Source: Gemmatimonadaceae bacterium
GTDB lineage: Bacteria > Gemmatimonadota > Gemmatimonadetes > Gemmatimonadales > Gemmatimonadaceae
Reading direction: 5' to 3'
Length of the DNA: 64,000 nt
Assembly (NCBI GenBank): GCA_020853635.1
Contig: JADYYN010000199.1
Span: 23,016-87,015 of the forward strand
Part shown: in pieces, positions 1,060 through 21,268 of the stretch
How the letters are laid out: each line of letters begins with the position of its first letter
Numbering within the stretch: the first letter of the stretch is position 1
Translations under genes and position numbers: made by a program
Notes under the pieces: model-generated
What the model was told of the DNA's origin: nothing
Database searches by the model: none
Seen by the model: the letters and a program-made list of their open reading frames with translations, nothing else

Positions 1060-1062
1060 GCG

Positions 1063-5940: not shown

Positions 5941-6929
5941 CGCGCGGTCAGATCGAGCGACGATCGCGGCTTGAGACGCCACGCCCCGGTGCCGGTCGGC
6001 ACCAGGATGCCGCCGACGTCGAAGCGCCGAGTGGGGAGGTACACTCCCGGCGGCAAAGGCGCGCGGAAGCCGAGATCCGCCGCGCGATCGAGAATCACCA
6101 CCACGGCCCCCGAACCGTCGTTCATCGTCATCTGGAACTGGCCTGCGACGGTTGAGGTATCGACGACTTGTGCGTTCAGGATGCGGACCAGCGCGGCGTC
6201 GAGAGCCCCGGCCGTGCCGCCGGTCGCGGCCTGCTGCGTCGTAATGGTCGGTGCTGACGGGATCAGGGTCGGCGCGACCGCGTAGACCGCCGCCCCGTCG
6301 AGGACCCGCTGGCCGAGCCGTTCACCCACGCGGCCGCGCAACACCAGACTGTCGCCCGCGGCTATCGCGACCGCGCTCGGTTGCAAGCGAGTCACGCGGA
6401 TCGTTCCCGCCGTGTCGATCACGTGCAGTGTGGTGTCGCTGAAGATCGTCCGCGCGTGGAGTGCGATCGCCCGGATGAACACGGTGCTGCCCGGGGCGAG
6501 CGCGCGCGCCTCTGCCGTGGTGCGGCTCGGGTACGAGAGCGACGCGACATAGTCCGCCGAATCACCCGGTAGCAGCGTGATGCTCCGAGGGGCGGCGTCG
6601 ACCGCCTCGGCGCTGTCCGCACCGCTCGTCGGATCGATGACCACGGAGTAGCTCCCGACCGGGACACCGCTGATCAAGAAGAGCCCGTCATCGCTCGTCG
6701 TCGCACGGAACAGCGTGTCGCCACCCGCAGCCGACATCACGCGGATCCGAGCGCCACCGAAGAACACGTCCTCGGCATCGAGCGTACGTGAGCCGTTGAG
6801 GTCGAAGTACACCCGACCGCGCACCACCCCGGTCGCGGCCACACCCAGCGTGCGCGTCGCACCGCCGTTCTCGCATCCGGCCGTCGCCAATACCGCGGCG
6901 ACGGTCAGCACCAAACGCTTCATCGTCAT
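5937..6929 (-). CDS. Lipoprotein with SdrD-B/Cna-B-like N-terminal domain and OB-fold-like C-terminal part
   Basis: Lipobox LATAG-C; GRVYFDLNGSRTLDAED; C-terminal WRLKPRS. Confidence 0.7.
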   Translation of the reverse strand: MTMKRLVLTVAAVLATAGCENGGATRTLGVAATGVVRGRVYFDLNGSRTLDAEDVFFGGARIRVMSAAGGDTLFRATTSDDGLFLISGVPVGSYSVVIDPTSGADSAEAVDAAPRSITLLPGDSADYVASLSYPSRTTAEARALAPGSTVFIRAIALHARTIFSDTTLHVIDTAGTIRVTRLQPSAVAIAAGDSLVLRGRVGERLGQRVLDGAAVYAVAPTLIPSAPTITTQQAATGGTAGALDAALVRILNAQVVDTSTVAGQFQMTMNDGSGAVVVILDRAADLGFRAPLPPGVYLPTRRFDVGGILVPTGTGAWRLKPRSSLDLTAR

Positions 6930-9832
6930 CGTCCGATCCTCAGGCCCACGCGGAAGAGCATCCCCGGCGCGCGATCCGAGAGCAGCTCGCCGAAGTTCGG
7001 GTTCACCACCAGCGGCACCGACGTCACACCGGTGCCCGGGTTCGTCGTCAACACGCCGGTCCGGTCCACGAGATACAGGGCACGGTCGATCCGCCCCTCC
7101 GTCCCGGGGATCACGTTCATGGCGTCCAGTACCAGGTCGAGCGGCCCGCTCGAGAACGTACGCAGCCGGAACGAGGCACGAAGATCGAGGCGGTGGACCA
7201 TCTCGCCGCGACAGTCGTTGCGCAGCGCGAATGTTCCGCTTGAACGCTGCAAGCAGCTGTGTGAGACCAGGAGCGCGTCCATCCCAGGCACCGCCGGATC
7301 GACGAACGCCACATCGTTCCCTGCGACGCCATCACCGTCGACGTCGACCCCGTCGCGGAATCCCGGAGTGAACGGCGTACCGGAACGCAGACGATAGATG
7401 ACACCGAACCGCACGGCACCCGAGGGAGCGACGCTCCATTCTGCCGCGGCCAAGAGTCGATGCGGCACGTCGAGGTCGGCGATGCCCTCGGACGCGAGCC
7501 CGCCGGTGAAGGGCGAGAGCGGCGCATCGCCGCCCGCCAGGTTGTCCTCGGTCAGCGAATACGTGTAGTGCACACCGACACTGAAGCCGGTGGCCGTCAC
7601 ACGCTCGATGCCGATCGTCGCACCACGATACTCCGAGAAGCCGGTGACCTCGATCGCATGGACCGCGTCGAAGTCGGAGAATCGACGATTGCTCGCGGGC
7701 AGCGCCGCGACGAGGGACCCCACCTGTTGCAAGGTTCCGTAGAGCGGGCGACCATACTGATCGACCCCCACGGGCGACGACGACAGGTTCAAGTCGCGGC
7801 GCCGTGCGAGGAAGTCCGTCTGGCGATACACACCCTGCACATACGACGTCCAGTTGCCGAGCGCGCGCTGAACGGCGAACGACATCCGGCGCGTGCGCGG
7901 TCCCTCATAGCCGGGACCTAAGACGGAAAGGGCTTGGCCCCGCGACGGCGCGGTCACCGAATCCGGGACCGCGGGCCAGTTCGCGAAGGTGCCGATCGCC
8001 GAACGGACATCGACCCCACGGTCGAGCATCAAGGCCTCGCCCACATCACGGCGGTCGGGCAGGTCGTTGTACACGCCGGCACCGCCCTCGAGCAACCAGT
8101 TCCTCGCCGCCCCCAGTTCCCATCGGAAGCCGATTCGCGGTGCGACGCGCGAGCTCGTTTCCTGCACCGCCGTGTTGTCCAGCCCCGACCGCAGCAGCCA
8201 AGCCCCGTTCGGTTCGAGGTCAGAGAGCGTCACTCGGTTCGCGTCGAATCGCAGACCGAGCGTCAGATCGAAGCCCGGCGTGACCGCCCACGCATCTTGG
8301 ATGAAGATCGCGCGCTCGGACATCCGATAGCTGCCCGTTCCACCCGTCGCCGCCATGCCGCGCCAGGCGCCGGCTCCGAGTTCGAAGTCCGCCGCGTCGC
8401 CGAAGCGGTAGTCACTGCCCGATCCGATGGTGCCCTGCGATTCGAAACGGTGGCCGGCGAGCGCCGCACCCAGCTTCAGACGGTGCGCACCGAGGTCCCA
8501 ATGCAGCATCGCGCCGAGACGCGGCGTCGCACGCTGATCGGAGAACGGTTCAGCCGTGCTGGCACCCAGCGTAACGCCGCGACCAGCGAATCCGGTCGAC
8601 GCGAGCATCGGTCCTTCCGAACTGACGTCGCCCATCTCGCCGGAGACACGGATCTCACTCGTCAAACGGCGCGTGAGTCGCGTGACGACATCGACGGACG
8701 CCTGCGCGGCGAGTGCCTCATGCCTCGTCCCAAGCCCCGCCGACGCCCCCTCGAGCAGCGCAGGCTGCGACGCTGTCAGACGCGTACCGCCGGCACGCAT
8801 CGTCACCGCATAACGATCGCCGAGCTGCCAGTCGAGCCGTCCGAACGCGCTGATGCGTTCCTCGATTCGGGGCGTTTCGTTGCGGTACGCGTCGAGATTC
8901 GTTGCGAATGAATCGCGGGCGATATTGATCAGCGCGAGTCCCTCGGTGTCGTCGGCGAGGAACCACGCTGGGCGCGCCACCTCACTCCGTTGATAGTCGA
9001 CCCCCAAGAACGCGTGCGCAGTGTCACGCTGGATCGGACCACCGAAGACGGCCGCCGCACCGACGTCGCTCGATCCGCCGAAGACGGCACTGCGCTGACT
9101 CGGAGTGCTTCCTCCTCGCAGCGAAAGGGCGTTGAGTCCGACGCCCGTGCCACCCATCTCCACGTCGTACCCGAGCCCACCGACGCCGACGTTCGACACG
9201 GCACGCGACGGAACCGCGAGCGCGAAGGTCTCCACGCCGCGAGCACTCGGTGCCGACACACTCCCGAGACGCGCACCGTCGACCATCACATCGGCGAATC
9301 GCCAGGGCAGCCCCTCTACGCCACGTTCATCGGCGACCGGAGAGAGCGCGAGCGCGTCCGTCGCGATCCGACGGCCGATCGCCAACTCGCCGTACCCGCG
9401 CTCCTGCAACCACGCGAGAGGCGCGATCCGCGCCCCGGCAGCACGGACCGTGTCGACGCTCGACACCGGCGGAGTTTCACGACGGAGCGCCACGCGCAAG
9501 CTACCCGCATCGCCGGCCGCGACCGCGACCCCGAGATAGAGTACGGGACGATAGCCGAGCGCTTCGACCGCGACCTCGTACACGCCGGGACCCAGCAGCC
9601 CGAACCGAAACTCGCCATCTCGTGCCGTGATCAACGAGCGAACGGCGCCGCTCACACGATCAGTGACACGAATCTCGGCGTCGCGCACCGGAGCGCCGGC
9701 AGCGTCGCGCACGACACCCGCGAGAGAACCGTGCATCAAACTCTGGGCGGCAGACGCTCTACTCCCGAGTCCGAGCATCGACGCGACGAATACGAACGCT
9801 GAGAAAACACGGAGCAGCCGAGGGCTGGTCAC
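6926..9832 (-). CDS. TonB-dependent receptor, Oar-like, with carboxypeptidase-regulatory N-terminal domain
   Basis: Signal peptide, GSLAGVVRDAAG...GVYEVAVEALGY, FIQDAW...LTLGLRFD, APRIGFRW, C-terminal beta strand FRVGLRIG. Confidence 0.85.
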   Translation of the reverse strand: MTSPRLLRVFSAFVFVASMLGLGSRASAAQSLMHGSLAGVVRDAAGAPVRDAEIRVTDRVSGAVRSLITARDGEFRFGLLGPGVYEVAVEALGYRPVLYLGVAVAAGDAGSLRVALRRETPPVSSVDTVRAAGARIAPLAWLQERGYGELAIGRRIATDALALSPVADERGVEGLPWRFADVMVDGARLGSVSAPSARGVETFALAVPSRAVSNVGVGGLGYDVEMGGTGVGLNALSLRGGSTPSQRSAVFGGSSDVGAAAVFGGPIQRDTAHAFLGVDYQRSEVARPAWFLADDTEGLALINIARDSFATNLDAYRNETPRIEERISAFGRLDWQLGDRYAVTMRAGGTRLTASQPALLEGASAGLGTRHEALAAQASVDVVTRLTRRLTSEIRVSGEMGDVSSEGPMLASTGFAGRGVTLGASTAEPFSDQRATPRLGAMLHWDLGAHRLKLGAALAGHRFESQGTIGSGSDYRFGDAADFELGAGAWRGMAATGGTGSYRMSERAIFIQDAWAVTPGFDLTLGLRFDANRVTLSDLEPNGAWLLRSGLDNTAVQETSSRVAPRIGFRWELGAARNWLLEGGAGVYNDLPDRRDVGEALMLDRGVDVRSAIGTFANWPAVPDSVTAPSRGQALSVLGPGYEGPRTRRMSFAVQRALGNWTSYVQGVYRQTDFLARRRDLNLSSSPVGVDQYGRPLYGTLQQVGSLVAALPASNRRFSDFDAVHAIEVTGFSEYRGATIGIERVTATGFSVGVHYTYSLTEDNLAGGDAPLSPFTGGLASEGIADLDVPHRLLAAAEWSVAPSGAVRFGVIYRLRSGTPFTPGFRDGVDVDGDGVAGNDVAFVDPAVPGMDALLVSHSCLQRSSGTFALRNDCRGEMVHRLDLRASFRLRTFSSGPLDLVLDAMNVIPGTEGRIDRALYLVDRTGVLTTNPGTGVTSVPLVVNPNFGELLSDRAPGMLFRVGLRIGR

Positions 9833-10153: not shown

Positions 10154-10170
10154 TCGGCACCAGAGTTGCG
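10154..10170 (+). promoter_or_regulatory. sigma54 (-24/-12) promoter of lasso precursor A1
   Basis: TCGGCACCAGAGTTGCG: GG(10156-57)-N10-GC(10168-69), close to TGGCAC-N5-TTGC. Confidence 0.72.
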
Positions 10171-10180
10171 TTACACGTTT

Positions 10181-10247
10181 TCGGTACATCACGTACCCGG
10201 ACGCGTAGCGCGCGCGCCCGAACTCACCACCTCTGCAGAGGTTCACT
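10181..10247 (+). promoter_or_regulatory. Structured 5' UTR of precursor A1 (three hairpins, the last occluding the SD)
   Basis: GGTAC-atcac-GTACC; 23-nt hairpin 10198-10220; palindrome ACCTCTGCAGAGGT 10229-10242; all three conserved in the A2 leader. Confidence 0.6.
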
Positions 10248-10430
10248 GTGGCTTATCAGAAGCCGCTCGTGGAAAAGCTTGGTTCTTTCCGCGAGCTCAC
10301 CCGATTCGGGCTCGCCTCCGCTACGGACGGCGCCTCGATCTTCGGAATCGGCTCCCCGGGTTGCTCGACGACCTGGCTCGGGACGACGTACGAGATCGGT
10401 TGCCCTGAAGACGGTCCGACGACCTCCTGA
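10248..10430 (+). CDS. Lasso peptide precursor A1 (60 aa; predicted 41-aa core FGLASATDGASIFGIGSPGCSTTWLGTTYEIGCPEDGPTTS)
   Basis: GTG start with AGAGG SD; leader YQKP motif, Gly, Thr at -2; Asp at core position 8; upstream of the B1/B2/C genes; paralog of A2. Confidence 0.92.
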   Translation: MAYQKPLVEKLGSFRELTRFGLASATDGASIFGIGSPGCSTTWLGTTYEIGCPEDGPTTS

Positions 10431-10470
10431 GTCGTCGACCCGACTACTCGTCGGGTGCAAGTCAGGTAGT

Positions 10471-10510
10471 CGCAATGCCCGAATCGCACACAAGCGGTTC
10501 GGGCATTGCG
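10471..10510 (+). terminator. 17-bp stem-loop after A1 (terminator or 3' stabiliser)
   Basis: CGCAATGCCCGAATCGC-ACACAA-GCGGTTCGGGCATTGCG followed by TCGTTCT. Confidence 0.7.
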
Positions 10511-10737
10511 TCGTTCTCGTGTTGCTGGCCGTGTCGTCTTCGGCCTGTGTTTGTTGCTTCGCCAGCGTCCAAGTCGTCAAATATGTTGCTTCCGCGCGAC
10601 GCCTTCGGACGTTTGTTGCAGCGAAGAACTGCGTCAGATTCACGTGATTGCGCTCAGGAAAAACCCGACGAGCCGCTAACCTATTGGAAAGATGCGGGTT
10701 GCGCATGTGAACATCTGCTGAACAGCGTAGGACCAAC

Positions 10738-10754
10738 GGGGCCTAAAAGTTGCT
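10738..10754 (+). promoter_or_regulatory. sigma54 (-24/-12) promoter of lasso precursor A2 and the downstream operon
   Basis: GGGGCCTAAAAGTTGCT: GG(10740-41)-N10-GC(10752-53), exactly the same offset from the start codon as in A1. Confidence 0.65.
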
Positions 10755-10764
10755 GTTCGGGTCA

Positions 10765-10831
10765 TCGGTACTCTCGGTACCCGAGCATGTGGCGCGCATG
10801 CTCGAACCCGTCACCTCTGCAGAGGTACTAC
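10765..10831 (+). promoter_or_regulatory. Structured 5' UTR of precursor A2
   Basis: GGTAC-tctcg-GTACC; CGAGCATGTG-GCG-CGCATGCTCG (10782-10804); ACCTCTGCAGAGGT (10813-10826). Confidence 0.6.
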
Positions 10832-10993
10832 ATGGCGTATCAGAAGCCCCTTGTCGAGAAGTTCGGCTCGTTCCGCGAGCTCACGCAGCTCGGACTCTCG
10901 TCGGCGTCAGATGGCGCGTCGATCTTCGGAATCTCGGGTTGCCAGACCGGTCCGATCTCGCTCGGATGCCCCACCGACCCGACGACGTCCTGA
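10832..10993 (+). CDS. Lasso peptide precursor A2 (53 aa; predicted 34-aa core LGLSSASDGASIFGISGCQTGPISLGCPTDPTTS)
   Basis: ATG 10832 with AGAGG SD; leader MAYQKPLVEKFGSFRELTQ is 17/19 identical to that of A1; Asp8; hidden at the end of a longer track ORF. Confidence 0.92.
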   Translation: MAYQKPLVEKFGSFRELTQLGLSSASDGASIFGISGCQTGPISLGCPTDPTTS

Positions 10994-11037
10994 GTCGTAC
11001 GGCTGGCATTCCTGCTGGCCGCGCAATGGTAGATTAC

Positions 11038-11069
11038 GTGCCCGCGTCGCGTTCGCGCGACGCGGGCAC
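11038..11069 (+). terminator. Perfect 14-bp GC-rich stem-loop between A2 and B1 (mRNA stabiliser or attenuator)
   Basis: GTGCCCGCGTCGCG-TTCG-CGCGACGCGGGCAC; no U-tract. Confidence 0.65.
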
Positions 11070-11103
11070 TGACGCATCCTCTCCCAACGATCCGCTCAAC
11101 GCC

Positions 11104-11403
11104 GTGACGCTCCCCCGAACCAACCCCGGTGTCGTGTTTCAGAAGCTCGAAGAGGGCGCCGTGCTCTTCGCCCCGGCGACAGAACTCTATTTCGGGCTGA
11201 ACGACGTCGGCGCGATGATCTGGGAGCTGCTGCCACGGGCGCGCTCCCACGACGAAGTCTACACCACCCTGCACACCACCTTCCCCGACGTGGACCTCGG
11301 CGTGATTCGAGCGGACGTGGATGACCTCCTGGCCCGCCTGCTCGCCGAGGGGCTGCTCGTTGGCCCGGTGTCCTCCGGCGGTGATGACGCACCCGGCCGC
11401 TAA
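11104..11403 (+). CDS. Lasso peptide B1 protein (PqqD-family RiPP recognition element)
   Basis: EEGAVLF...YFGLNDVGAMIWELL...ADVDDLLARLLAEGLL; GTG start chosen downstream of the hairpin. Confidence 0.9.
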   Translation: MTLPRTNPGVVFQKLEEGAVLFAPATELYFGLNDVGAMIWELLPRARSHDEVYTTLHTTFPDVDLGVIRADVDDLLARLLAEGLLVGPVSSGGDDAPGR

Positions 11404-11824
11404 ACTCTTCGCGCTTGGCTTCAGCGGCTGGCGAGACCTTCTGAGAGCGCAGCGCGCACTCCTACGCGCGCGGCGACAGCTACGCACAGAGCCGCTCGGC
11501 TCACTCGCGATCCGGGCGTCCGTTGACCCTGCGACGGTCACCGGTGACGCTCGTCGTGCCAATGAAATCGCCCTCGCCGTCATGCGCACCGCCGAGCGCG
11601 GGCTCTTCAGGCCGTATTGCCTCGTGCAGAGCCTCGCGCTGCGCGAGCTCTTGCTCGCCGATGGCATCACCGGGGTGAGCATCCGCATCGGCGTCCGCCG
11701 GCACCGCGGGGTGTTCCAAGCACACGCGTGGGTGCGGTGGGGAGACGTCGTACTCGGCGACAGCGCCGAGCACGTGGCGACCTTCACCGAAGTGGATGAC
11801 CTGCGTGTGATGGGCGAGACATGA
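11384..11824 (+). CDS. Lasso peptide B2 leader peptidase (transglutaminase-like)
   Basis: CLVQSLAL and AHAWV catalytic Cys/His motifs; IGVR. Confidence 0.92.
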   Translation: MTHPAAKLFALGFSGWRDLLRAQRALLRARRQLRTEPLGSLAIRASVDPATVTGDARRANEIALAVMRTAERGLFRPYCLVQSLALRELLLADGITGVSIRIGVRRHRGVFQAHAWVRWGDVVLGDSAEHVATFTEVDDLRVMGET

Positions 11825-13773
11825 GCGCGGTCGCGGCGATCATCGGTGGTGATCTGCTGGCTGGGACGCAGACAACCGGTCGCGTCGAGCGCATGCTGCG
11901 CGCAATGGCCTCGACCGGGGGAACGGAGCAGCAGCTCATCGTGCCCTATCCGGCGGCCCCCGCGACCACGGTCGCGTTCGGGGTCCGTGCGCACCAGTGG
12001 GAACTCGCGTGGCGACCCTTCGCCGTCGCGACTGCGGGCGCACTCACCGTCGCGGCCGACGCCACGCTGTTCCACCGCGACGACCTGCTGCGGTCCCTTG
12101 AGCGGCCGACGGGGAGTGTGATGAACGATGCCGCGCTCATTCTCGCGGCCTACGCGCGGTGGGGCAGCGCCGGCATCGCACGACTCGAAGGCGAGTTCGC
12201 GTTCGTCCTCCACGACCGTGACACCGCACGTGTGATCGCGGGGCGTGACTTCGCCGGACTACGTCCGCTCGTGTTCGCGACCGTCGATGACACGATGCTG
12301 CTCGCCTCTCGCGCCGAGGGGTTACTGTGCGACCCCGCCGTCCCGCGCGCGCTCGACTACGCGAGCCTGACCACCGTAGCCGCGGGTCTCTGGAGCCACA
12401 GCCCACAGACCGTGTTCCGGTCGATCCGTGAGCTGCCCGCTGGTCATCTCGTCGTCGCCGAGTTGGACGCGACCGGGAGACTCCGGTCGGCGCCCCGCGT
12501 CGAAGCGTTCTGGTCGCCGCCACCACGCGTGGAGACGGGTCGACTCCCGTTGGGTCCTGCGGCGGAGGAGCTGCGCGCGCTGTTGATCGACGCGGTGCGC
12601 GAACGCATCGCTCCCGACGGCCCGACATCCATCTCACTGAGCGGTGGTTGGGATTCGTCGGCGGTGGGCAGCGCCGCGACGCTCGTGCTGTCGGGCGCGG
12701 ACCGCACGCGACTCCGTCCGGTGAGTATCTCGTATCCGCCCGGCGACCCCGGGCGCGAGGATGAGATCATCGAGACCGTCACCACGGCGTGGGGTGTCAC
12801 GCCCGCGTGGATCCCGGTGGACGAGATCCAGCTGCTCGGTGGAACGATCGGCGATCCGATCGCGGAGGCGGCCGCTCGCGCCTTGCCGTTCGCGCACAGC
12901 TACGAGCATTGGAATCGCGCGCTCTCCCGCCGCGCGCGCGCCGCGGGCTCGCGCGTGATCCTCGATGGCGTCGGCGGTGACCAGTTGTTCCAGGTCTCCG
13001 ACATCTACCTCGCCGATCTCTTCGCGCGTGGTCAGTGGCTCGAACTGGCGACCCAGTGGCGCGCACGCGGCGGACGGAGTCTTCGCGATCTGTGGCAGTG
13101 GGCCGTGCGCCCCGCATTGCCGGACGCACTGAACCACGGCTTCGCCCGGCTTCGCGGTGCACCGGCCGCGCCGGACTACCTGACCCGGCGCCCTCCGATG
13201 TGGTTCCGTGCGAAGTTCCTCGCGCAACACGATGTCATGGCGCGCGAACTCGCCTCGCGTCCCGTGGCCCCCCGGGGAGACCGCGTGCTCGTCGAGACGC
13301 ACGCGTTCCTGCGGTTCGCGTTCTTCACCCGCGTCGTTGCGCTGCTGCGCGGGTATGCACTCGAGGAAGGCGTCGCCCTGCGCTCGCCTCTCCTCGACGA
13401 CCGCGTGGTGCGCTTCGCCGCGCAGCGACCCTGGAGCGAACGGGCCGACCGCAAGGAGACCAAGATCCTTCTGCGCAAGGCGATGGAGGGTCTCATCCCG
13501 CCGCAGGTCATCGCCCCGCGCACGCACCGGACCGGGATCACGTCGGCATATTTCCTGCGCCAGTTGCGTGGTCCCGCCCGGCCCGTGCTCGAGTCGCTGC
13601 TCACGGACCCCGTGCTCGCGTCGATCGGGATGATCGATCCCGTGCGCCTGCGTCGGGCATGGGAGCACGTGCTTACGCACGACGACGATGAGACCGGCGC
13701 CCGCGTGTTCTTCACCCTGCAGACCGAACTCTGGCTGCGCAGTCGTTCCGATCTCCTTCCCCAGTCGACGTGA
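11821..13773 (+). CDS. Lasso peptide cyclase (asparagine synthetase-like C protein)
   Basis: SLSGGWDSS PP-loop, DGVGGDQLF, RSPLLDDRVV; RDFAGLRPL; no N-terminal catalytic Cys; coupled to B2 by ATGA overlap. Confidence 0.9.
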   Translation: MSAVAAIIGGDLLAGTQTTGRVERMLRAMASTGGTEQQLIVPYPAAPATTVAFGVRAHQWELAWRPFAVATAGALTVAADATLFHRDDLLRSLERPTGSVMNDAALILAAYARWGSAGIARLEGEFAFVLHDRDTARVIAGRDFAGLRPLVFATVDDTMLLASRAEGLLCDPAVPRALDYASLTTVAAGLWSHSPQTVFRSIRELPAGHLVVAELDATGRLRSAPRVEAFWSPPPRVETGRLPLGPAAEELRALLIDAVRERIAPDGPTSISLSGGWDSSAVGSAATLVLSGADRTRLRPVSISYPPGDPGREDEIIETVTTAWGVTPAWIPVDEIQLLGGTIGDPIAEAAARALPFAHSYEHWNRALSRRARAAGSRVILDGVGGDQLFQVSDIYLADLFARGQWLELATQWRARGGRSLRDLWQWAVRPALPDALNHGFARLRGAPAAPDYLTRRPPMWFRAKFLAQHDVMARELASRPVAPRGDRVLVETHAFLRFAFFTRVVALLRGYALEEGVALRSPLLDDRVVRFAAQRPWSERADRKETKILLRKAMEGLIPPQVIAPRTHRTGITSAYFLRQLRGPARPVLESLLTDPVLASIGMIDPVRLRRAWEHVLTHDDDETGARVFFTLQTELWLRSRSDLLPQST

Positions 13774-14744
13774 CGCTGGTCCACGCTTCGCACCGATACG
13801 CCGTGTATGGCGCCTGCCTCGCGTCGGAACTCCTGTTCCCGGAGTTGCCGTCGGCCGACGCCGGCGCGACGCCGCGCTGGGAGTTCACCACGACGCCGGC
13901 ACTCGCGCCCATGCAGGACGAGACCGCGATCGGAGACGACCATATCTACGGCAGCGTGCACGCGCGCCTCTTCGCGCACGCCACAGGGCATCGGATCGTC
14001 GTCGACGACACCGGCGTCTTCGACATCAGCTTGGACCGACGGCGACTGCAGTGGGAACAGCGCGCGGATGCGTGGCCGGACTTCGTGCGCTCCCATCTCA
14101 CCGGCCGCGTGATCGCGACGGCGCTGTATCTCGACGGCCTGCTGCCGTTGCACGGCAGTGCGGTCGAGACCGCCGACGGCGTGATCGGATTCCTCGCGCC
14201 CAAGGGGTACGGCAAGTCCACGCTCGCGTGGGCACTCACGCAAGCCGGCGCACGCCTCGTCACCGACGACACCCTTCCCGTCGAACTGCTCGCCCGCGAC
14301 ACCGACAGCTCACGGGCACCGAGCGTGATGGCGTGGCCCGGTGTGCACAGTATGCGCCTCAAGGAGGACACGCTCCGCGCGGTCGGCGATGCCCCGCAGA
14401 CGCTCGGCACCAATGAGGGCAAACAGGTCGTCACCGATCTCCCCGAGGCGCGCCGCCTCACACACCCGCGTCCGCTCGTCGCGCTCTATCTGCTCGACCC
14501 CGTGCATCCCGACGGCGTCGAGGTCCAGTGGACCGCACTGCCGCCCATGCTCGCGGCGATCAGCGTGGTCGCGCACGTAAAGATCGGCCGCATGCTCGGG
14601 GCCGCCGCCGCGCCGGTGATGCTCGAGCGCGCCGCCACCATCGCGCGCTCCGTTCCGGTGCGACGCCTCCAGATGCCGCGCGAGCTCACCCGCGTCCGCA
14701 CGATCGCTGACACCATCCTCTCGTGGCACGGCGGGGTCGCATGA
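13770..14744 (+). CDS. HprK-related lasso peptide kinase (PadeK/ThcoK-like)
   Basis: LHGSAV...APKGYGKST...LVTDD motifs; inside the lasso operon. Confidence 0.85.
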   Translation: MTLVHASHRYAVYGACLASELLFPELPSADAGATPRWEFTTTPALAPMQDETAIGDDHIYGSVHARLFAHATGHRIVVDDTGVFDISLDRRRLQWEQRADAWPDFVRSHLTGRVIATALYLDGLLPLHGSAVETADGVIGFLAPKGYGKSTLAWALTQAGARLVTDDTLPVELLARDTDSSRAPSVMAWPGVHSMRLKEDTLRAVGDAPQTLGTNEGKQVVTDLPEARRLTHPRPLVALYLLDPVHPDGVEVQWTALPPMLAAISVVAHVKIGRMLGAAAAPVMLERAATIARSVPVRRLQMPRELTRVRTIADTILSWHGGVA

Positions 14745-15757
14745 CGCTCATCACCATCGAAGGACTCTCCAAGCGCTTCCCCGTGCAGCGCACGTGGCGC
14801 GAGTCGGTGGCCGCGCCGTTCGCCCGCCCTACCGCGCCCGCGGTGAGCGACGTCTCCTTCAGCGTGGACGAAGGCGAGATCTTCGGTCTGCTCGGCCAGA
14901 ACGGCGCGGGCAAGACGACGTTGTTCAAGATGCTCTCGACGCTCATCCTGCCGGACGCCGGCGACGCGACCATCGCGGGTCATGATGTGCGCACGGAGCC
15001 CGATGCCGTGCGTCGACTGCTCGCGCCCGTCATCGCCAACGAGCGCACGCTGTACTGGCGTCTCTCCGCGCACGAGAACCTCCGGCTCTACACCTCGCTG
15101 CAAGGGGTGCACGGCGCCGCCGCGCGCGCGGAGATCACCCGCGTGCTCGGGGTCACCGGTCTTTCCGACACCGGCGAGAAGATGGTCGGACTCTTCTCGT
15201 CGGGGATGCGCCAGCGCCTCCTCATCGCGCGTGCCCTGCTGGCGCGGCCGCGGGTGCTGTTGCTCGATGAACCGACGCGGAGCCTCGACCCGATCTCCGC
15301 CCGCGACTTCCGCAGCTTCCTCCGCGAAACCGTGGTGCAGCGCGAGGGCTGCACGGTGCTGCTCGCCACACACGACGCGGACGAGGTTTGGGACCTCTGC
15401 GACCGGGTCGGCGTCCTGGAGCGCGGACGTCTGCTCGCCGTCGATGCGACCGCCGCGCTGCGACACCGCTCGGGCAGCGATGCGTATCGCGTGTGGTTGC
15501 GCGCGGAGGACGGTGAGGCGGCGGCCGCGGCCGCACGCGTCGCCGGGTTCGAACTCCGACGTCGCGGCGCGGCCCCGGAAGCCGGTTGGGAGGAATGGAG
15601 CTGTGCGATCGACGGTGGCGCGGAGGTGGCGGCCCGTGCACTCGCGGCGATCGGTGCCGACGGGCGCGCGGTGGCGCGATTCGAACGTGCGGCGCCCTCG
15701 CTCGCTGATCTCATCGAGCGCGTACTCATCGCGGCGAAGGCGGGCGCACATGCGTAG
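14741..15757 (+). CDS. ABC transporter ATP-binding protein
   Basis: GQNGAGKTT, FSSGMRQR, LLLDEPT. Confidence 0.92.
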   Translation: MTLITIEGLSKRFPVQRTWRESVAAPFARPTAPAVSDVSFSVDEGEIFGLLGQNGAGKTTLFKMLSTLILPDAGDATIAGHDVRTEPDAVRRLLAPVIANERTLYWRLSAHENLRLYTSLQGVHGAAARAEITRVLGVTGLSDTGEKMVGLFSSGMRQRLLIARALLARPRVLLLDEPTRSLDPISARDFRSFLRETVVQREGCTVLLATHDADEVWDLCDRVGVLERGRLLAVDATAALRHRSGSDAYRVWLRAEDGEAAAAAARVAGFELRRRGAAPEAGWEEWSCAIDGGAEVAARALAAIGADGRAVARFERAAPSLADLIERVLIAAKAGAHA

Positions 15758-16550
15758 CATCCTCGCACTCATGCGCGCGGCGTGGTTGACGGGCTTGAGC
15801 TACCGGCTCGCGACCGTGATCTCGCTGGCGGGACTGCTCGCCTCGGTGGTGCCCATCTATTTCATCTCGAACGCGGTACAGGACGTCGCGGAAGCGTCCA
15901 TCGCCCTTGAGGGCGGCCAGTATTTCGCGTTCATCGTCTTCGGCACCGCCGCCATGTATGTGCTCGCGGCGGCACTGTCCGCGCTGCCCTCCGCACTCTC
16001 GGGGAGCATTGGCAGCGGCACCTTCGAGTCGCTGTTGGTGACGCGCACCCCGCTGCCCTTGTTGCTCATCGGCATGGCAGGGTATCCGCTGCTGCAGAGT
16101 CTGCTCCGCGCCGCATTGCTCCTCGGCGGTGCGCTGGTGCTCGGGGTCCAGCTCCGCTGGACGATGCTGCCTCCCGCGCTCGGCATCGTCGCGCTCACCA
16201 TCACGGCGTACGCGTCGATCGGCCTGCTGGCGGCCTCGCTCATCCTCGTCTTCCGCACCGCCGGTCCGCTGATCACGGTGGTGACGTCGGGGTCCGCGCT
16301 GCTCGGCGGCGCGTACTACTCGACGACCGTGATCCCAGGGTGGCTGCAGTCGTTGTCCGGGATCGTGCCACTCACCTACGCGCTGCGTTCCGTTCGACGG
16401 CTGCTGCTCGGCGATGCATCGCTGGTGGATGTGTCCTCCGACGTGGGGATGCTCGCATTGCTCGCGGTCACCGGGCTCGCGATCGGCATGCTCGTCTTCG
16501 GCGCCGCGTTGCAGCACGCGCGCCGCGCGGGCACGCTCTCGCAGTACTGA
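15750..16550 (+). CDS. ABC-2 type permease
   Basis: About 6 TM segments, GTFESLLVT, VPLTYALRSVR; ATG at 15750. Confidence 0.88.
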   Translation: MRSILALMRAAWLTGLSYRLATVISLAGLLASVVPIYFISNAVQDVAEASIALEGGQYFAFIVFGTAAMYVLAAALSALPSALSGSIGSGTFESLLVTRTPLPLLLIGMAGYPLLQSLLRAALLLGGALVLGVQLRWTMLPPALGIVALTITAYASIGLLAASLILVFRTAGPLITVVTSGSALLGGAYYSTTVIPGWLQSLSGIVPLTYALRSVRRLLLGDASLVDVSSDVGMLALLAVTGLAIGMLVFGAALQHARRAGTLSQY

Positions 16551-16553
16551 GCG

Positions 16554-17762
16554 ATGGCACTCGAGGCTCCTCAGATCTCCGCTGAAGCGCGGCTCGTGTA
16601 TCGCTCGGCGGCGCAGCGCGGGAGTGATGCCGAGGTGTCGGCGCTCGTGGCGGCGGTCACCGATTGGGGGCGTGTCCTCCTTCTCGCCGAACGCGAGGTC
16701 GCGACGAGTGCGCTATGGCGCATGCTCAAGCCTCCGACCGCGACCGCGGTGCCTGACGGCGTGCCGACGGTCGTCGCGGATCACCTTCGGCGCAGCGCGA
16801 TGGTGAGTGACTTCCGCATGCAGATGCTCGCCCAGCGGCTGCAGTCGACGGTGGCGACGTTCCGTGCGGCGGGAGTCCCGGTGCTGCTGCTCAAGGGAGC
16901 CGCCGTGGGCGCCGTGGTCGACCCCACGTTCCGCACACGTCCGATGACGGACCTTGACGTCCTCATCTCGCGCGACGACATCGCGCGCGCCCGCGCGGCC
17001 CTTCTCTCGTGCGGATGGGCCGAGACGTCCGACACCGTGCTGCTCGAGTTGCTGCAGGACCATCATCATCTGCCGCCGTTCGTCGACGCGCAGAACCCCG
17101 GCACGCGTCTCGAGTTGCACATCGCGGCGTTGCCGCTCGACCATCGGTTCGCGCTCGACGATGCGGAACTCTGGCGCTCGTCGTTCGCGGCGGGGGAACC
17201 GTTCCTCGGCGCACGGGTGCCATCACCGGAGCTGTTCGTGCTGCACGCGTGCATCCATTTCGGGTGGGCGCACACGATGGCGTTCGGCGCGTGGCGGACG
17301 TTCCGTGCGATCAGTGCGTATCTGGATGGCGCGCCGATCGACTGGGACCGGTTCGTCGCGCTCGCGGAGCGCACGCGTGCGGCGTCGGTCTGTCACTGGA
17401 CGCTGCGCCTCGGCGCCCATCTCGCGGGGTTGCCGGTGCCGGCACGGGTGCTCGATCGACTGGAGCCGCCGGTGCTCGACGAACTCCACGCCGCACTCGA
17501 GCGGCACTTCATCGTCGGGATCGCCCCCGGTGAAGGCGTTGCGTGTCCGAGCGTGTGGCTCACGCATCGTCTCTGGCGCTTGGCGATCCGGCCGGGCTGG
17601 AGCGGGTTGGGCGCTGATCTGCGATGGGATCCCGAGCAACGCTGGGACCGTGCGCGTGGGATCGCCTCAACGGAGACGCGTGCGCAGCGGCTGGAGCGTC
17701 ATCTGTCGAGCCTCAGCGATTGGCAGCAGTTCCTTATGCGGACGATCCTGCGTCGTTCGTGA
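16554..17762 (+). CDS. Nucleotidyltransferase family protein (NTP_transf_5-like; PsmN/PadeN-like)
   Basis: LLLKGAA...RPMTDLDVLI, LELH motifs; last gene of the lasso operon. Confidence 0.82.
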   Translation: MALEAPQISAEARLVYRSAAQRGSDAEVSALVAAVTDWGRVLLLAEREVATSALWRMLKPPTATAVPDGVPTVVADHLRRSAMVSDFRMQMLAQRLQSTVATFRAAGVPVLLLKGAAVGAVVDPTFRTRPMTDLDVLISRDDIARARAALLSCGWAETSDTVLLELLQDHHHLPPFVDAQNPGTRLELHIAALPLDHRFALDDAELWRSSFAAGEPFLGARVPSPELFVLHACIHFGWAHTMAFGAWRTFRAISAYLDGAPIDWDRFVALAERTRAASVCHWTLRLGAHLAGLPVPARVLDRLEPPVLDELHAALERHFIVGIAPGEGVACPSVWLTHRLWRLAIRPGWSGLGADLRWDPEQRWDRARGIASTETRAQRLERHLSSLSDWQQFLMRTILRRS

Positions 17763-18454: not shown

Positions 18455-19396
18455 ATGTCCCTCGCCGTTCTCCGCCAGCAACTCGCCGCCGTCGTCGCCG
18501 GGACCCCGAGCTCCACACCCGGGCTCCCCACCGGCTTCGCCGCACTCGACACCATCCTCCCCGGTGGCGGCATCCCGCGCGGGCGACTCACCGAACTCCT
18601 CGCTCCGGCCGGCGCCGGCAAGACCACCATCGCCCGCGCCCTCGTCGCCGCGACCATCCGGCGTGGCGGTGGCGTCGCATGGATCGACGCCACGCGCACA
18701 CTCGACCCGCGTGACTTCGCTCCAGCGGTCGCCACATATCCCGGCGTCGTCGCGCAGCAGGGCCGTTCGCCCTGGGCCACCACCTCCATCGGTGGCACCC
18801 CGCACGGCACACTCACCGCCGCAGAACTCGAAGCGCTCTGGGTCGTGCGCCCCACGGATCCCGCGCGCGCCTCGTGGTGCGCCGATCTCCTGCTCCGCTC
18901 CAGCGCCTTCACGCTCGTCGTGCTCGACGGTGCGCCTGTCCTGCCACGCGCCGTCGGCGTGCGCCTCGCGCAACTCGCCCGTGAGTCCGACGCCGCGCTC
19001 CTCCTCCTCGGCGAGGGCACACGCGCCTCGGAGATCGGCGGCGCACTCCGACTCCGGCTCACCCCGGACGCACGCACCGTCGAGACACGCAGCGTCGATA
19101 GACGCAGCGTCGATAGACGCAGCGTCGATTCACGCAGCATCGACAAACCCAGCGCCGTCATCTCCCGTCCCGCGCCTCGCCCTGCGATGCAGCGGATCAC
19201 CGTCACGCTCGAGAAGGGCGGACCCTATCAACATGTGCAGGTGGAGGTCAATCGTGGCCACGGCATCACGCGTCGCTTGTGTGCGCATCCCGAGATTCCC
19301 GATCGGCGCGGTGTGGCTCGATCGCGCAAGCACACGGCCCCCCGGAGCCACCGTGCCGCCCAACCCGACTACCCGGCCCAGCACGGCGCGTCCTGA
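18455..19396 (+). CDS. imuA: ImuA-like RecA-family protein
   Basis: LPTGFAALD.ILPGGGIPRGRLTEL, AGAGKTT, VAWID, LVVLDG; first gene of the imuB-dnaE2 cassette. Confidence 0.8.
   Translation: MSLAVLRQQLAAVVAGTPSSTPGLPTGFAALDTILPGGGIPRGRLTELLAPAGAGKTTIARALVAATIRRGGGVAWIDATRTLDPRDFAPAVATYPGVVAQQGRSPWATTSIGGTPHGTLTAAELEALWVVRPTDPARASWCADLLLRSSAFTLVVLDGAPVLPRAVGVRLAQLARESDAALLLLGEGTRASEIGGALRLRLTPDARTVETRSVDRRSVDRRSVDSRSIDKPSAVISRPAPRPAMQRITVTLEKGGPYQHVQVEVNRGHGITRRLCAHPEIPDRRGVARSRKHTAPRSHRAAQPDYPAQHGAS
19087..19146 (+). repeat. In-frame 15-bp tandem repeat x4 in imuA, (RSVDR)-like
   Basis: ACGCAGCGTCGATAG x2, ACGCAGCGTCGATTC, ACGCAGCATCGACAA. Confidence 0.85.
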
Positions 19397-20918
19397 CGCT
19401 CCGCACGAGACCACACGGGATACGACGCGCGACTCGCACACGAACTGGGACGAACTCCCGCTCGCGCTCACCGCTGGCACCCTCGTGCGCGCCGCCACCG
19501 CGGCGGCCGCACACCTCGGCGTGCGCACCGGGATGACGCTCGCGCAGGCGCGGGCCAAGTGCGCGGGACTCATGCCCTATCCATGGGACACGGCCGTGAT
19601 CGGACGCGAGACAGCGCGCGCGAGTGCGGCGTTCCTCTCGGGCAGTCCGCAGGTCGCGCCCGCACGCGACACGCCCGGCATCTGGTGGGTGGGCGCCGAA
19701 GGATTCGAAGGCATCGGCGGTGAACGTGTACTCGCCGAGACGCTGCTGGCGTTGGCGCGCGTGTGGCATCCGCGTGCGCGGGTGGCGGTGGCGGATGCTT
19801 GCGTGACCGCACACGCTGCGACCTGGAGTGCGCGCGCTGCCGCCGGCCCGCTGCACATCGCCCCGCAAGGCGACGCCGAGTATCTCGCGCGTGTCCCCAT
19901 CGCGCTGCTGCCGATGGATATCGAGTTCCGCACCACGCTCGCGGCACTCGGGCTGCGCACGGCGGGTGCACTCGCGCGACTCGACCCACTCGAGGTGGAG
20001 CGTCGTTGGGGGAGTGATGGACTCACCGCGTGGCGCCTCGCGCGCGGTGACGATGCGCGTCGCCCCACACTCGCCCGCACCGACGACCCGCGCAGCATCG
20101 CGCACGACCTGGCGACGAGTGCCCAGACGATGGAGCCGATCCTCTTCCTCGTGCGCGCCTCGCTCGACCGACTCGTGCGTACACTCGCAGCGGAAGGACT
20201 CGCCGCGGCCTCGGTCGCGATCACCCTCACGATGGATGATGTCGGTGGCAGTCCCGGGCCCGCGCGTCGTGTGACACGCGAGGCGCGCCCAGCCCGCCCG
20301 ATGGCGCGCGTGGTACCACTCTTCGAACGGTGTCGTGCACTGCTCGATGCATGGACGCTCGACGCGCCCGTGCGTGCAGTAGAGGTGCGCATCGCGGCGA
20401 CGGCACCTTCGTCCGCAGAACAAGGCGATCTCCTCGCGCCCTCGTGGCGCGACCCGGCCGCTGCCGAGGCCGCTCTCGCGCGTCTGCGTGCCACCCTCGG
20501 CGCCGGCGGTGTGGTGCGCCCGGTGCAGCGCGATTCACACGCGCCCGAGCGGGCGGGTGTGTGGGAGGAAGTGGAACACGCGGAACTGCGCGCACCCACA
20601 CTCGATGCGCGTGAGGCCCGGCCATCGCTCGGCAACTCCACAGTGGTCGCAAGTACACCGCCCGCGGCGCGACTCCTCGAATCACCCGAGGCGATCACCG
20701 TTGCCACAGATAAACGCGGCGCACCGGTGCAGATGTTCTGGCGCACGCGTCGCCTCGCGCTCACGCGGGCACATGGGCCGGAGCGACTCTCGGGGGAATG
20801 GTGGCAGGCACAGCCGTTCGCGCGGGAGTACTGGCGCTGTGAGAGTGATGAGTTGGGGCAGGATCTGTTGTTGTACCGCGATGCGGGGGGATGGCGGTTG
20901 CATGGGTGGTATGACTGA
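19254..20918 (+). CDS. imuB: ImuB, inactive Y-family polymerase-like mutasome scaffold
   Basis: GGAGG SD then GTG 19254; ACVRIPRF, GVRTGMTLAQARAKC, QGDL clamp-like motif, GPERLSGEWW...REYW...WRLHGWYD; lacks the SIDE catalytic motif. Confidence 0.85.
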   Translation: MATASRVACVRIPRFPIGAVWLDRASTRPPGATVPPNPTTRPSTARPDAPHETTRDTTRDSHTNWDELPLALTAGTLVRAATAAAAHLGVRTGMTLAQARAKCAGLMPYPWDTAVIGRETARASAAFLSGSPQVAPARDTPGIWWVGAEGFEGIGGERVLAETLLALARVWHPRARVAVADACVTAHAATWSARAAAGPLHIAPQGDAEYLARVPIALLPMDIEFRTTLAALGLRTAGALARLDPLEVERRWGSDGLTAWRLARGDDARRPTLARTDDPRSIAHDLATSAQTMEPILFLVRASLDRLVRTLAAEGLAAASVAITLTMDDVGGSPGPARRVTREARPARPMARVVPLFERCRALLDAWTLDAPVRAVEVRIAATAPSSAEQGDLLAPSWRDPAAAEAALARLRATLGAGGVVRPVQRDSHAPERAGVWEEVEHAELRAPTLDAREARPSLGNSTVVASTPPAARLLESPEAITVATDKRGAPVQMFWRTRRLALTRAHGPERLSGEWWQAQPFAREYWRCESDELGQDLLLYRDAGGWRLHGWYD

Positions 20919-20932
20919 CCAAGGTCCGCTGA

Positions 20933-21268
20933 ACTGCTTTCACCACAGAGGGCACAGAGGACACAGAGCACTGCCACGGCAGACCACAGGGACACAGGGG
21001 ACGCAGGGGGGGTGCTGCAGTGGTCGGTACTGCGTCTGTGAAAACTTCTTCGTTGGAACAGCGTGCTGGCGACATCAGTCTGCTACATCACGCACCAATG
21101 AGAAAAGACAACATCGCTGCGACACCCGAGTGAACGCCCGAGACGAGCACTGTTACGGCTTTGTACTCCGTGTGCCCCTGTGCTCCCTGTGTCCCCTGTG
21201 TCCCTGTGGTAATCGCCGTTCCTCTGTGCCCTCTGTGTCCTCTGTGGTAACCGCCGTTGCCGTTCCCC
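20933..21268. repeat. Nested inverted-repeat element built of CACAG(A/G)G(G) ~9-nt units (intergenic imuB-dnaE2)
   Basis: Outer arms 20942-20968 / 21222-21248 and inner arms 20983-21008 / 21185-21210 are near-perfect reverse complements. Confidence 0.8.

What the first reader, a model, noticed from the sequence alone, without database searches (positions are those of the whole stretch)
10154..17762. Complete two-precursor lasso-peptide cluster combining a tail disulfide, kinase and nucleotidyltransferase in a probable Gemmatimonadota genome
Seen: A1, A2, B1 (RRE), B2 (CLVQS/AHAW), C (SGGWDS), HprK-like kinase, ABC ATPase and permease, and a nucleotidyltransferase. The genes from B1 onward overlap or abut, implying one operon. 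Established: kinase plus nucleotidyltransferase clusters (paeninodin, pseudomycoidin) give C-terminal Ser phosphorylation and, for pseudomycoidin, further hexosylation. Tail-only disulfides define class IV lasso peptides (LP2006, pandonodin). Inference: I know of no characterised lasso peptide combining both features, or one from this phylum, so this may be a new subfamily. Automated callers could miss both precursors (A1 has a GTG start; A2 is buried in a longer spurious ORF).
Basis: partly seen in the sequence, partly recalled or inferred. Interest (0 to 1): 0.92.

Follow-up and report, generated by a model that had tools for sequence, protein, structure and literature searches.

The report
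Disulfide-tailed, phosphate-capped lasso peptide cluster
A Gemmatimonadota bacterium carries an intact, conserved nine-gene cluster predicted to make two unusually long knotted (lasso) peptides that likely combine a disulfide-closed variable tail loop with a phosphate-capped, and probably sugar-capped, last serine; every enzyme is of a known type and one of the two peptides is already in a published prediction table, but I found no characterised peptide with this combination.

Summary
Two lasso precursors (60 and 53 aa), B1, B2, cyclase, HPr-type kinase, ABC-2 exporter pair and a PsmN-like nucleotidyltransferase are all present, uninterrupted and translationally coupled, with catalytic residues intact. 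Orthologous cyclases occur in 14 of 36 same-genus genomes, and related precursors in 57 of 401 phylum genomes. Leader geometry puts cleavage before Phe1/Leu1, giving an 8-residue ring to Asp8 and cores of 41 and 34 aa. In the best 120 homologues Gly2, Asp8 and the terminal Ser are invariant; 103 have exactly two tail cysteines, none has one, and the loop between them varies (99 distinct in 103). The predicted products are class IV-like lassos with a phospho(glyco)sylated C-terminal Ser; no product is shown. Corrections: gene callers did not miss the precursors (both are in NCBI nr at the right length), A2 is already in the LassoPred table, and lasso clusters are already reported in this phylum. 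The scan found this family before on other genomes. I found no characterised lasso combining both features: a new variant of a known kind, moderate interest.

The parts
10164..10247 (+). Upstream 84 nt of A1, duplicated ahead of A2 (57 of 84 identical); ends in a short palindrome over the ribosome-binding site
   Evidence: not conserved in relatives, folding z-scores -1.7 and -1.3, no Rfam match near a gathering score
10248..10430 (+). Precursor A1, 60 aa: 19-aa leader; predicted 41-aa core from 10305 (Phe1, Asp8, Cys20, Cys33, Ser41)
   Evidence: NF033521 above cut-off; Tyr-17/Pro-14/Val-12/Thr-2 register; exact protein in NCBI nr
10471..10510 (+). Strong hairpin after A1, without a U-tract; likely transcript stabiliser or attenuator (inferred)
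   Evidence: 17-nt arms; z = -6.0 for 10428-10530; not scored as an intrinsic terminator
10748..10831 (+). Upstream 84 nt of A2 (second copy of the duplicated unit)
10832..10993 (+). Precursor A2, 53 aa: 19-aa leader; predicted 34-aa core from 10889 (Leu1, Asp8, Cys18, Cys27, Ser34)
   Evidence: NF033521 above cut-off; coding score; identical entry in LassoPred table row 1293
11038..11069 (+). Perfect 14-bp hairpin between A2 and B1
   Evidence: z = -2.9 for 10990-11110
11104..11403 (+). B1, leader-binding RRE (99 aa from GTG 11104; an ATG at 11026 would give 125 aa)
   Evidence: PF05402 50.6 bits; homologues align from the first residues of the 11104 start
11384..11824 (+). B2, leader peptidase (Cys79, His114, Asp126)
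   Evidence: NF033537 above cut-off; triad kept in 32, 33 and 32 of 33 orthologues
11821..13773 (+). C, lasso cyclase (macrolactam synthetase), 650 aa
   Evidence: PF00733; best NCBIfam model NF033535, under cut-off; SGGxDS in 46 of 48 orthologues, 2 gapped
13770..14744 (+). K, HPr-kinase-like peptide kinase (His128, Lys149, Asp166, Asp167)
   Evidence: weak PF07475/TIGR04352 and weak PDB HprK match; four residues in 49 of 49 orthologues; spacing equals BsfK H148/K169/D186/D187
14741..15757 (+). ABC exporter ATPase (DrrA-like)
15750..16550 (+). ABC-2 permease
   Evidence: PF01061
16554..17762 (+). N, PsmN-like nucleotidyltransferase-fold enzyme (Asp133, Asp135)
   Evidence: PF14907 112 bits; DxD in 41 of 41 orthologues; model pLDDT 92.8, best fold match ANT(2'')-Ia 4xje Z 11.9, rmsd 3.1, 166 aligned, tied with MenT1 Z 11.8

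Best explanation
This is an intact, conserved lasso-peptide operon of the pseudomycoidin/paeninodin gene set whose two precursors are predicted to become 41- and 34-residue lassos closed from Phe1 or Leu1 to Asp8, likely phosphorylated and probably then hexosylated on the last serine, exported, and likely locked by a disulfide between two tail cysteines. Steps: (1) B1 binds the YxxPxV leader (motif shown, binding inferred from the family). (2) K phosphorylates the C-terminal Ser of the precursor, as PadeK, ThcoK, SyanK and PsmK do (residues shown, site inferred, about 0.8). (3) B2 cuts after the residue following Thr-2 and C joins the new amine to Asp8 while the cysteines are still reduced in the cytoplasm (register well supported, about 0.9; reaction inferred). 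The ring most likely grips the conserved Ile12-Phe13 pair, leaving a tail of about 28 residues in A1 (inferred, about 0.65). (4) N adds hexose to the phosphate, or activates it for a sugar transfer (inferred from PsmN, about 0.55). (5) The ABC-2 pair exports the peptide and the cysteines oxidise outside the cytoplasm into a stapled hairpin below the ring (inferred, about 0.85). The constant ring and neck with a variable stapled loop suggest an exported recognition or surface peptide whose loop sets specificity, rather than a broad antibiotic (weakest step, about 0.4).
For: Gene set, coupling and intact frames. Catalytic residues conserved in 33-49 orthologues per enzyme. Register: Tyr-17, Pro-14, Val-12, Thr-2 match the spacing given in PMC10368454; the MS-271 precursor in PDB 8itg aligns in the same register, though only at E 1.1; LassoPred lists the same split and ring for A2; Trp1 and Tyr1 rings are shown for fusilassin, cellulassin and halolassin. 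In the best 120 of 240 homologues: Gly2, Asp8, Gly9 and terminal Ser 120 of 120, residue 1 W/L/I/F/V, two tail Cys 103, none 14, three 3, one 0; Ile12 108 of 120. In 55 precursors from 49 loci none has a single Cys; 30 have Asp8, two tail Cys and terminal Ser, 23 of them with C, K and N in the same locus. A1 versus A2, codons 2-35: 13 synonymous, 6 non-synonymous differences, 18 of 25 changes at third positions. N folds most like ANT(2'')-Ia, entries 4xje and 5cfs, the same templates reported for PsmN, and its DxD sits at 133/135 against 134/136 in PsmN. No oxidoreductase gene is in the cluster, as for LP2006 and pandonodin, and the genome has four DsbA-family matches. Inter-Cys loops: 99 distinct among 103; entropy 1.5 bits per position against 0.8 for leader and neck; a low-confidence model shows a two-strand hairpin between the cysteines.
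Against: No product or enzyme activity is shown. C and K score under their family cut-offs. The 120 homologues are the best scorers to a profile built from 13 family members, so their conservation is inflated, and the 14 Cys-free ones look like one clade. Across the phylum 7 of 55 precursors do not end in Ser, 6 of them beside a kinase, and BsfK phosphorylates a ring Ser instead; A1 has 12 and A2 11 Ser/Thr in the core. LppN did nothing in a heterologous host, the bsf cluster gave no lasso, and unmodified pseudomycoidin was an unthreaded branched cycle. LassoPred's plug guesses for close relatives range from 13 to 40, so the ring could lie past the cysteines. The A1 model has mean pLDDT 57. 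Three related loci lack a cyclase next to A-B1-B2-K-N (L069, L096, L104).
Confidence: 0.6

Rival explanations
1. Same pathway, different topology: the ring grips the short stretch after the second cysteine, so the disulfide hairpin lies in a very large loop and the phosphoglycan cap itself is the lower plug; or the peptide unthreads to a branched cycle.
For: The pseudomycoidin authors propose the cap as a steric lock and found the uncapped peptide unthreaded; the stretch after the second Cys is mostly 7-8 small residues ending in Ser; LassoPred offers late plugs (29-40) for relatives.
Against: Known loops are 3-20 residues and this would need 25 or more in A1; residues 9-15 are far more conserved than the distal tail and hold the only conserved bulky pair; LassoPred's first choice for A2 is plug 13.
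Confidence: 0.2
2. The kinase acts on a ring or neck Ser/Thr (as BsfK does on Ser3), and the terminal Ser is kept for another reason such as export or N recognition.
For: BsfK precedent in a Gram-negative cluster that also has N; position 7 is Ser/Thr in 117 and position 11 Ser in 111 of 120; 6 precursors not ending in Ser sit beside K.
Against: The terminal residue is Ser, never Thr, in 120 of 120 cores of 33-57 aa; BsfA ends in Asp, and all other characterised lasso kinases cited act on a terminal Ser.
Confidence: 0.12
3. N is a true nucleotidyltransferase: it adds a nucleoside monophosphate to the phospho-Ser, and any sugar comes from a separate glycosyltransferase, possibly of the neighbouring polysaccharide island, tying the peptide to the cell-surface matrix.
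For: All top fold matches of N transfer NMP (ANT(2''), MenT, LnuA); PMC9266682 leaves this route open for PsmN; the cluster borders about 26 kb of polysaccharide genes and 6 of 8 same-genus loci have such a marker within 5 kb; Bacillota paeninodin clusters also lie in capsule loci.
Against: Outside the genus only 5 of 36 loci have such a marker, against about 7% of random 10-kb windows in this genome, with some markers taken from those very loci; PsmN-dependent products showed hexose masses, not NMP masses.
Confidence: 0.25
4. The cyclase is dispensable or inactive and the real product is a linear, phosphorylated, disulfide-looped peptide like the LPPs.
For: L069 holds a close relative of these precursors with B1, B2, K, ABC and N but no cyclase between them; L096 and L104 likewise; C is under the NF033535 cut-off.
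Against: C is full length, coupled and keeps its ATP-binding motifs in 46 of 48 orthologues; Asp8 is invariant; 44 of 49 precursor loci hold C; the L069 genome has a cyclase at another locus, L106; L096 and L104 cores are short and lack Asp8.
Confidence: 0.07

Closest known systems
Pseudomycoidin cluster psmCAKB1B2ND, Bacillus pseudomycoides (PMC6993621; passages read)
   Same: Split B1/B2, cyclase, HPr-type kinase, NTP_transf_5-type N with the same DxD position and the same fold templates, ABC exporter, terminal Ser.
   Different: Here two precursors, bulky residue 1, Asp8 ring (Ala1-Asp9 there), two tail cysteines, 34-41 aa cores, two-gene ABC-2 exporter, gene order A-A-B1-B2-C-K-ABC-N, other phylum.
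Paeninodin, ThcoA and SyanA kinase clusters (PMC9266682; passages read)
   Same: His-Lys-Asp-Asp kinase, terminal Ser, modification expected on the precursor.
   Different: Paeninodin is class II (no disulfide) and its cluster lacks N.
Class IV lassos LP2006, pandonodin, felipeptins (PMC9266682, PMC7689547, PMC13352647; passages read)
   Same: One cysteine pair wholly after the ring; no dedicated oxidoreductase needed; pandonodin also has a long tail.
   Different: No kinase or N in their clusters; felipeptin loops enclose 3 residues, against 8-16 here; pandonodin is 33 aa with an 18-aa tail, given as the longest tail, while 119 of 120 cores here exceed 33 aa.
bsf cluster, Bradymonas sediminis (PMC10368454; passages read)
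   Same: Gram-negative cluster with B1, B2, C, K, N and exporter; kinase residue spacing matches.
   Different: Ile-2, Gly1, terminal Asp, phosphate on ring Ser3.
Predicted Gemmatimonadota lasso peptides in LassoPred Supplementary Data (PMC12214591; passages and 31 supplement rows read)
   Same: A2 itself and four close relatives are listed with the same cleavage site, ring 8 and two Cys.
   Different: Table rows only: no family name, no tailoring genes, no experiment; A1 is not among the rows hit; the main text does not name the phylum.
LPP linear polyphosphorylated peptides, Bacillota (PMC13381572; passages read, supplements searched)
   Same: RRE, HPr-type kinase, NTP transferase, exporter; often in polysaccharide loci.
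   Different: No cyclase, signal-peptidase-type protease; this cluster has B2 and C.

Membership tests
Lasso peptide gene cluster | Precursor with YxxPxL-type leader and Thr-2 | tested here: met
   NF033521 above cut-off for both; Tyr-17, Pro-14, Val-12, Thr-2
Lasso peptide gene cluster | Asp/Glu acceptor at core position 7-9 | tested here: met
   Asp8 in both and in 120 of 120 homologues
Lasso peptide gene cluster | RRE and leader peptidase with Cys-His-Asp triad | tested here: met
   PF05402; NF033537 above cut-off; Cys79/His114/Asp126 conserved
Lasso peptide gene cluster | Asparagine-synthetase-like cyclase | tested here: met
   PF00733 above cut-off, SGGxDS conserved, coupled to B2; best NCBIfam model is the lasso cyclase but under its cut-off
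Lasso peptide | Isopeptide ring with threaded tail in the product | not testable with these tools
   Needs MS and NMR; AlphaFold2 does not model lariat knots (PMC12214591)
Class IV lasso peptide | Exactly two cysteines, none in the ring | tested here: met
   Cys20/33 and Cys18/27; 103 of 120 homologues
Class IV lasso peptide | Disulfide formed and lying below the ring | tested here: inconclusive
   Both-or-none pattern supports pairing; low-confidence hairpin model; threading position unknown
Phosphorylated (paeninodin-type) lasso peptide | HPr-type kinase with His-Lys-Asp-Asp | tested here: met
   His128, Lys149, Asp166, Asp167 in 49 of 49; profile scores under cut-off
Phosphorylated (paeninodin-type) lasso peptide | Conserved C-terminal Ser | tested here: met
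   120 of 120 close homologues; 48 of 55 across the loci fetched
Phosphorylated (paeninodin-type) lasso peptide | Phosphate on that Ser in the product | not testable with these tools
   Needs kinase assay and MS/MS
Phosphoglycosylated (pseudomycoidin-type) lasso peptide | PsmN-like enzyme with DxD | tested here: met
   PF14907; Asp133/Asp135 in 41 of 41; fold nearest 4xje/5cfs. No direct alignment to PsmN was made.
Phosphoglycosylated (pseudomycoidin-type) lasso peptide | Hexose on the phosphate | not testable with these tools
   Needs MS; LppN was inactive in a foreign host
LPP linear polyphosphorylated peptides | SipW-like peptidase and no cyclase | tested here: not met
   B2 and C are present; none of the nine genes is a signal peptidase

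The most novel reading that the evidence does not exclude
A phylum-wide family of the longest natural lassos, locked three ways (isopeptide ring, tail disulfide, phosphoglycan end cap) and using a constant knot to display an interchangeable 8-16-residue disulfide-stapled hairpin: a natural peptide display scaffold that serves strain-specific recognition at the cell surface, with a cyclase that accepts five bulky first residues and tails of up to about 45 residues.
Probability: 0.3. Interest if true: 0.7.

Novelty: new variant of a known kind. Interest (0 to 1): 0.45.

Why it matters
If the predictions hold, these would be the first lassos I could find that join a class IV disulfide with terminal phosphoglycosylation, the first characterised from Gemmatimonadota, and longer (41 aa) than the 14-33 aa of solved structures. 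They would test directly whether the phosphoglycan cap or the disulfide keeps a long tail threaded, an open point raised for pseudomycoidin, and what PsmN-type enzymes really transfer. A cyclase that tolerates W/L/I/F/V at position 1 and freely varying stapled loops would be useful for grafting. The limits: no new enzyme class, one precursor already in a public prediction table, and no known activity.

Tried and rejected
Missed by gene callers: rejected. Gly1-Asp7 ring: rejected, it would need Thr at -3, and relatives without Gly2 keep the Thr-2 register. A conserved RNA element upstream of the precursors: rejected; the repeat is a local duplication, relatives do not share it, no Rfam family, weak folding. 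A phylum-wide tie to polysaccharide loci: not supported (5 of 36 loci outside the genus, about 7% background). The divergent TonB-type receptor and lipoprotein as dedicated partners: not supported; the lipoprotein gene is in 13 of 36 same-genus genomes, 11 of them among the 14 with the cyclase, but lies 19 and 34 kb from the cyclase in G028 and G007, and no receptor of this type was found in the loci fetched from other genera. Expression: no RNA holder listed; the one run (probably DNA) held contigs of a roughly 91% identical relative and says nothing on expression. AlphaFold2 of A1: pLDDT 57, not searched further. PDB sequence searches gave nothing useful for B2, N or the cores and only asparagine-synthetase relatives for C. 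The GTDB contig scan returned only 2 loci. The primary pandonodin paper was not held, so its figures come from a review passage. No complex prediction was run. Supplements of PMC12480086 (one file unreadable) and PMC13381572 had no Gemmatimonadota entry; bioRxiv supplements and the original RODEO and RRE-Finder tables were not seen and may list A1 or discuss the family.


Full report
Observation. Searches show nine open, co-oriented genes from 10248 to 17762. From B2 to N each overlaps the previous gene by 4-20 nt or follows after 3 nt; B1 follows A2 after 110 nt if it starts at the GTG at 11104, the start favoured by alignments of relatives. Both precursors pass the curated cut-off of NF033521 and B2 that of NF033537; B1 is PqqD/RRE, N is NTP_transf_5, the ABC pair is DrrAB-like. 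C matches the lasso cyclase model best but under cut-off (195.8 of 525 bits); K matches HPr kinase models only weakly. A genome-trained coding score favours the precursor frames and rejects the upstream part of the 172-codon ORF that contains A2. A1 and A2 come from a local duplication that includes 84 upstream bases; over codons 2-35 they differ at 13 synonymous and 6 non-synonymous codons, as expected of protein-level selection.

Taxonomy. The two named loci with an orthologous cyclase (54% and 50%) are titled Gemmatimonadaceae; the 3 of 120 precursor homologues with a family name are from Gemmatimonadota; a published table row identical to A2 gives Gemmatimonadota. No marker gene of the window itself was tested.

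Distribution. Of 36 same-genus genomes, 14 have an orthologous cyclase (48-62% identity, some as contig-end fragments), and 2 of 24 genomes of other families. Of the 15 same-genus loci fetched, 8 show the whole B1-B2-C-K-ABC-ABC-N order, 6 are cut by contig ends, and L029 lacks the ABC pair. A profile of 13 precursors hit 57 of 401 phylum genomes, 32 of 93 in the own family (this tally includes the window's genome and the unpublished G201). I fetched the 39 best-ranked places not already held, leaving out G201 and weaker hits. With the earlier loci this gave 55 precursors in 49 loci; 44 loci hold C, 44 K, 39 N, 36 all three. These are kin, not independent samples.

Core. Counting from Phe/Leu after Thr-x puts Tyr at -17, Pro at -14, Val at -12 and Thr at -2, the spacing stated in PMC10368454. 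The ring is then residue 1 to Asp8; cores are 41 and 34 aa. The protein search found 240 homologues among 671 candidates; in the best 120, which include the window's own peptides and profile members, Gly2, Asp8, Gly9 and the terminal Ser are invariant (Thr-2 was required by my parsing and is not a result), residue 1 is W 51, L 36, I 19, F 8, V 6, and core length is 33-57, median 41. Cysteines: two in the tail 103, none 14, three 3, one 0. The first Cys always follows Gly, the second precedes Pro in 90 of 103; loops are 8-16 residues, 99 distinct. In the 62 twelve-residue loops fixed Thr, Thr, Ile, Gly alternate with variable positions, which fits a stapled hairpin; mean entropy is 1.5 bits against 0.8 in leader and neck, so the loop is variable but not free. 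AlphaFold2 drew a two-strand hairpin there at low confidence. In the wider phylum set the pattern loosens: 32 of 55 have two tail Cys, 8 none, 8 one ring plus one tail, 7 three; 48 end in Ser; 53 have Asp/Glu at 7-9.

Enzymes. B2 Cys79/His114/Asp126, K His128/Lys149/Asp166/Asp167, N Asp133/Asp135 and C SGGxDS are conserved in nearly all orthologues. K's spacing equals that of BsfK and the His-Lys-Asp-Asp motif named for PadeK-type kinases. The N model is confident (pLDDT 92.8); Foldseek gave no match at E 0.001, with ANT(2'')-Ia and MenT1 leading, and VIA-align gave 4xje Z 11.9 and 8an4 Z 11.8. The pseudomycoidin paper names 5cfs and 4xje as templates for PsmN and Asp134/Asp136 as essential, so N looks like PsmN; a shared fold does not show the reaction.

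Mechanism. Shown: genes, motifs, conservation. Inferred from named families: K phosphorylates the terminal Ser of the precursor; B1/B2 remove the leader; C closes and threads the ring; N installs hexose or activates the phosphate; the ABC-2 pair exports. Inferred by me: cysteines stay reduced during threading and oxidise after export (no oxidoreductase in the cluster; four DsbA-family matches in the genome); the ring sits near Ile12-Phe13; the hairpins after A1 and A2 raise precursor over enzyme transcript; the cap and disulfide protect and lock a long tail. Even if the ring sat just before Cys20, A1's tail would be 22 residues, over the 18 given as the record; if it sat past Cys33 the peptide would not be class IV. 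The biological role is the weakest step. Unmodified pseudomycoidin and its threaded variant did not inhibit three test strains and the role of paeninodins is stated as unknown. I favour an exported recognition or surface peptide because knot and neck are constant and the loop varies.

Context. The cluster closes a polysaccharide island of about 26 kb (glycosyltransferases, UDP-sugar dehydrogenase, flippase, C-methyltransferase, epimerase, XrtA-type deacetylase) and is followed by DUF423 and an imuA-imuB-dnaE2-like cassette. Six of 8 same-genus loci have a polysaccharide marker within 5 kb, but only 5 of 36 loci elsewhere (4 of 40 left out for short flanks), against about 7% of random windows. 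This is genus-level synteny, not a general link.

Comparison and novelty. It works like the pseudomycoidin cluster and meets every gene-level test of a kinase/N-type lasso cluster; its cores meet the sequence test of class IV; product-level features are untested. Nine full-text searches (most seen as listings only) and passages of ten papers (PMC9266682, PMC11316326, PMC6993621, PMC13381572, PMC13352647, PMC10368454, PMC12214591, PMC8498205, PMC7689547, bioRxiv 2020.11.25.399105) showed no characterised lasso with both a tail disulfide and a phospho-Ser end, and none from this phylum; subscription papers are mostly outside the library. But the family is not hidden: lasso clusters were counted in 29 Gemmatimonadota MAGs, NCBI names relatives as lasso precursors, both window peptides are in nr, and the LassoPred table has 31 Gemmatimonadota rows, among them A2 itself (row 1293) and four close relatives with the same split. 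Earlier notes of this scan describe the same family on other genomes; I treat them as leads, not support.

Verdict. Real, intact, well conserved; a new variant of a known kind that is easy to test. Interest 0.45; boldest surviving reading 0.3 likely, 0.7 if true.

Noticed in passing
L111:8311-13873 (own genome, contig C105), minus strand: A second lasso-like locus: short leader-bearing ORF (13688-13873), SAM methyltransferase, cyclase-like gene (NF033535 180 bits, under cut-off), HPr-like kinase, a second short ORF with an NF033521 match near 9446-9600, and an NTP_transf_5 gene. Both short ORFs end in RRTG; no B1 or B2 was called in the locus, so it may borrow them from the main cluster.
   Followed up: partly
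L071-L074, L076, L077, L080, L100: In other genera the related cluster lies in or beside the str ribosomal operon: rpsL is a near neighbour in 7 loci, and fusA follows the cluster in L074, L077, L080 and L100, so in L074, L080 and L100 it sits between rpsL/rpsG and fusA.
   Followed up: partly
L069, L096, L104: Loci with A-B1-B2-K-(ABC)-N but no adjacent cyclase. L069's precursor is a close relative of A1 and its genome has a cyclase elsewhere (L106); L096 and L104 have 13- and 11-residue cores without Asp8.
   Followed up: partly
L029:8225-8407 and 14 of proteins P0001-P0120: A cysteine-free branch with the same ring and terminal Ser but a Trp-rich, acidic tail of 42-57 residues; L029's cluster lacks the ABC pair.
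   Followed up: no
L070-L073, L075, L084, L102; L074, L077, L078, L080, L089, L092: Other cysteine patterns in the same family: three tail Cys (7 of 55) and one ring plus one tail Cys, class III-like (8 of 55).
   Followed up: no
L031:18056-19301: The precursor has moved downstream of the cluster and sits with a second kinase copy.
   Followed up: no
window 10229-10242 and 10813-10826: An identical 14-nt palindrome covers the ribosome-binding site of both precursors and could hide it in a hairpin; not seen in the relatives inspected.
   Followed up: partly
window 10434-11028: One contig of run X1 joins the end of A1 to the B1 region, suggesting a relative with a single precursor; short side (42 nt), low depth, metagenome.
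   Followed up: no
window 262-9832 and L087: Polysaccharide island with an XrtA-type deacetylase, a 349-aa protein without Pfam or NCBIfam match (4055-5104), a lipoprotein-like gene and a carboxypeptidase-domain outer-membrane barrel protein transcribed away from the lasso cluster.
   Followed up: partly
window 18455-25360: imuA-imuB-dnaE2-like mutagenesis cassette; the polymerase gene holds a low-complexity Asn/Thr/Gly-rich insertion.
   Followed up: no
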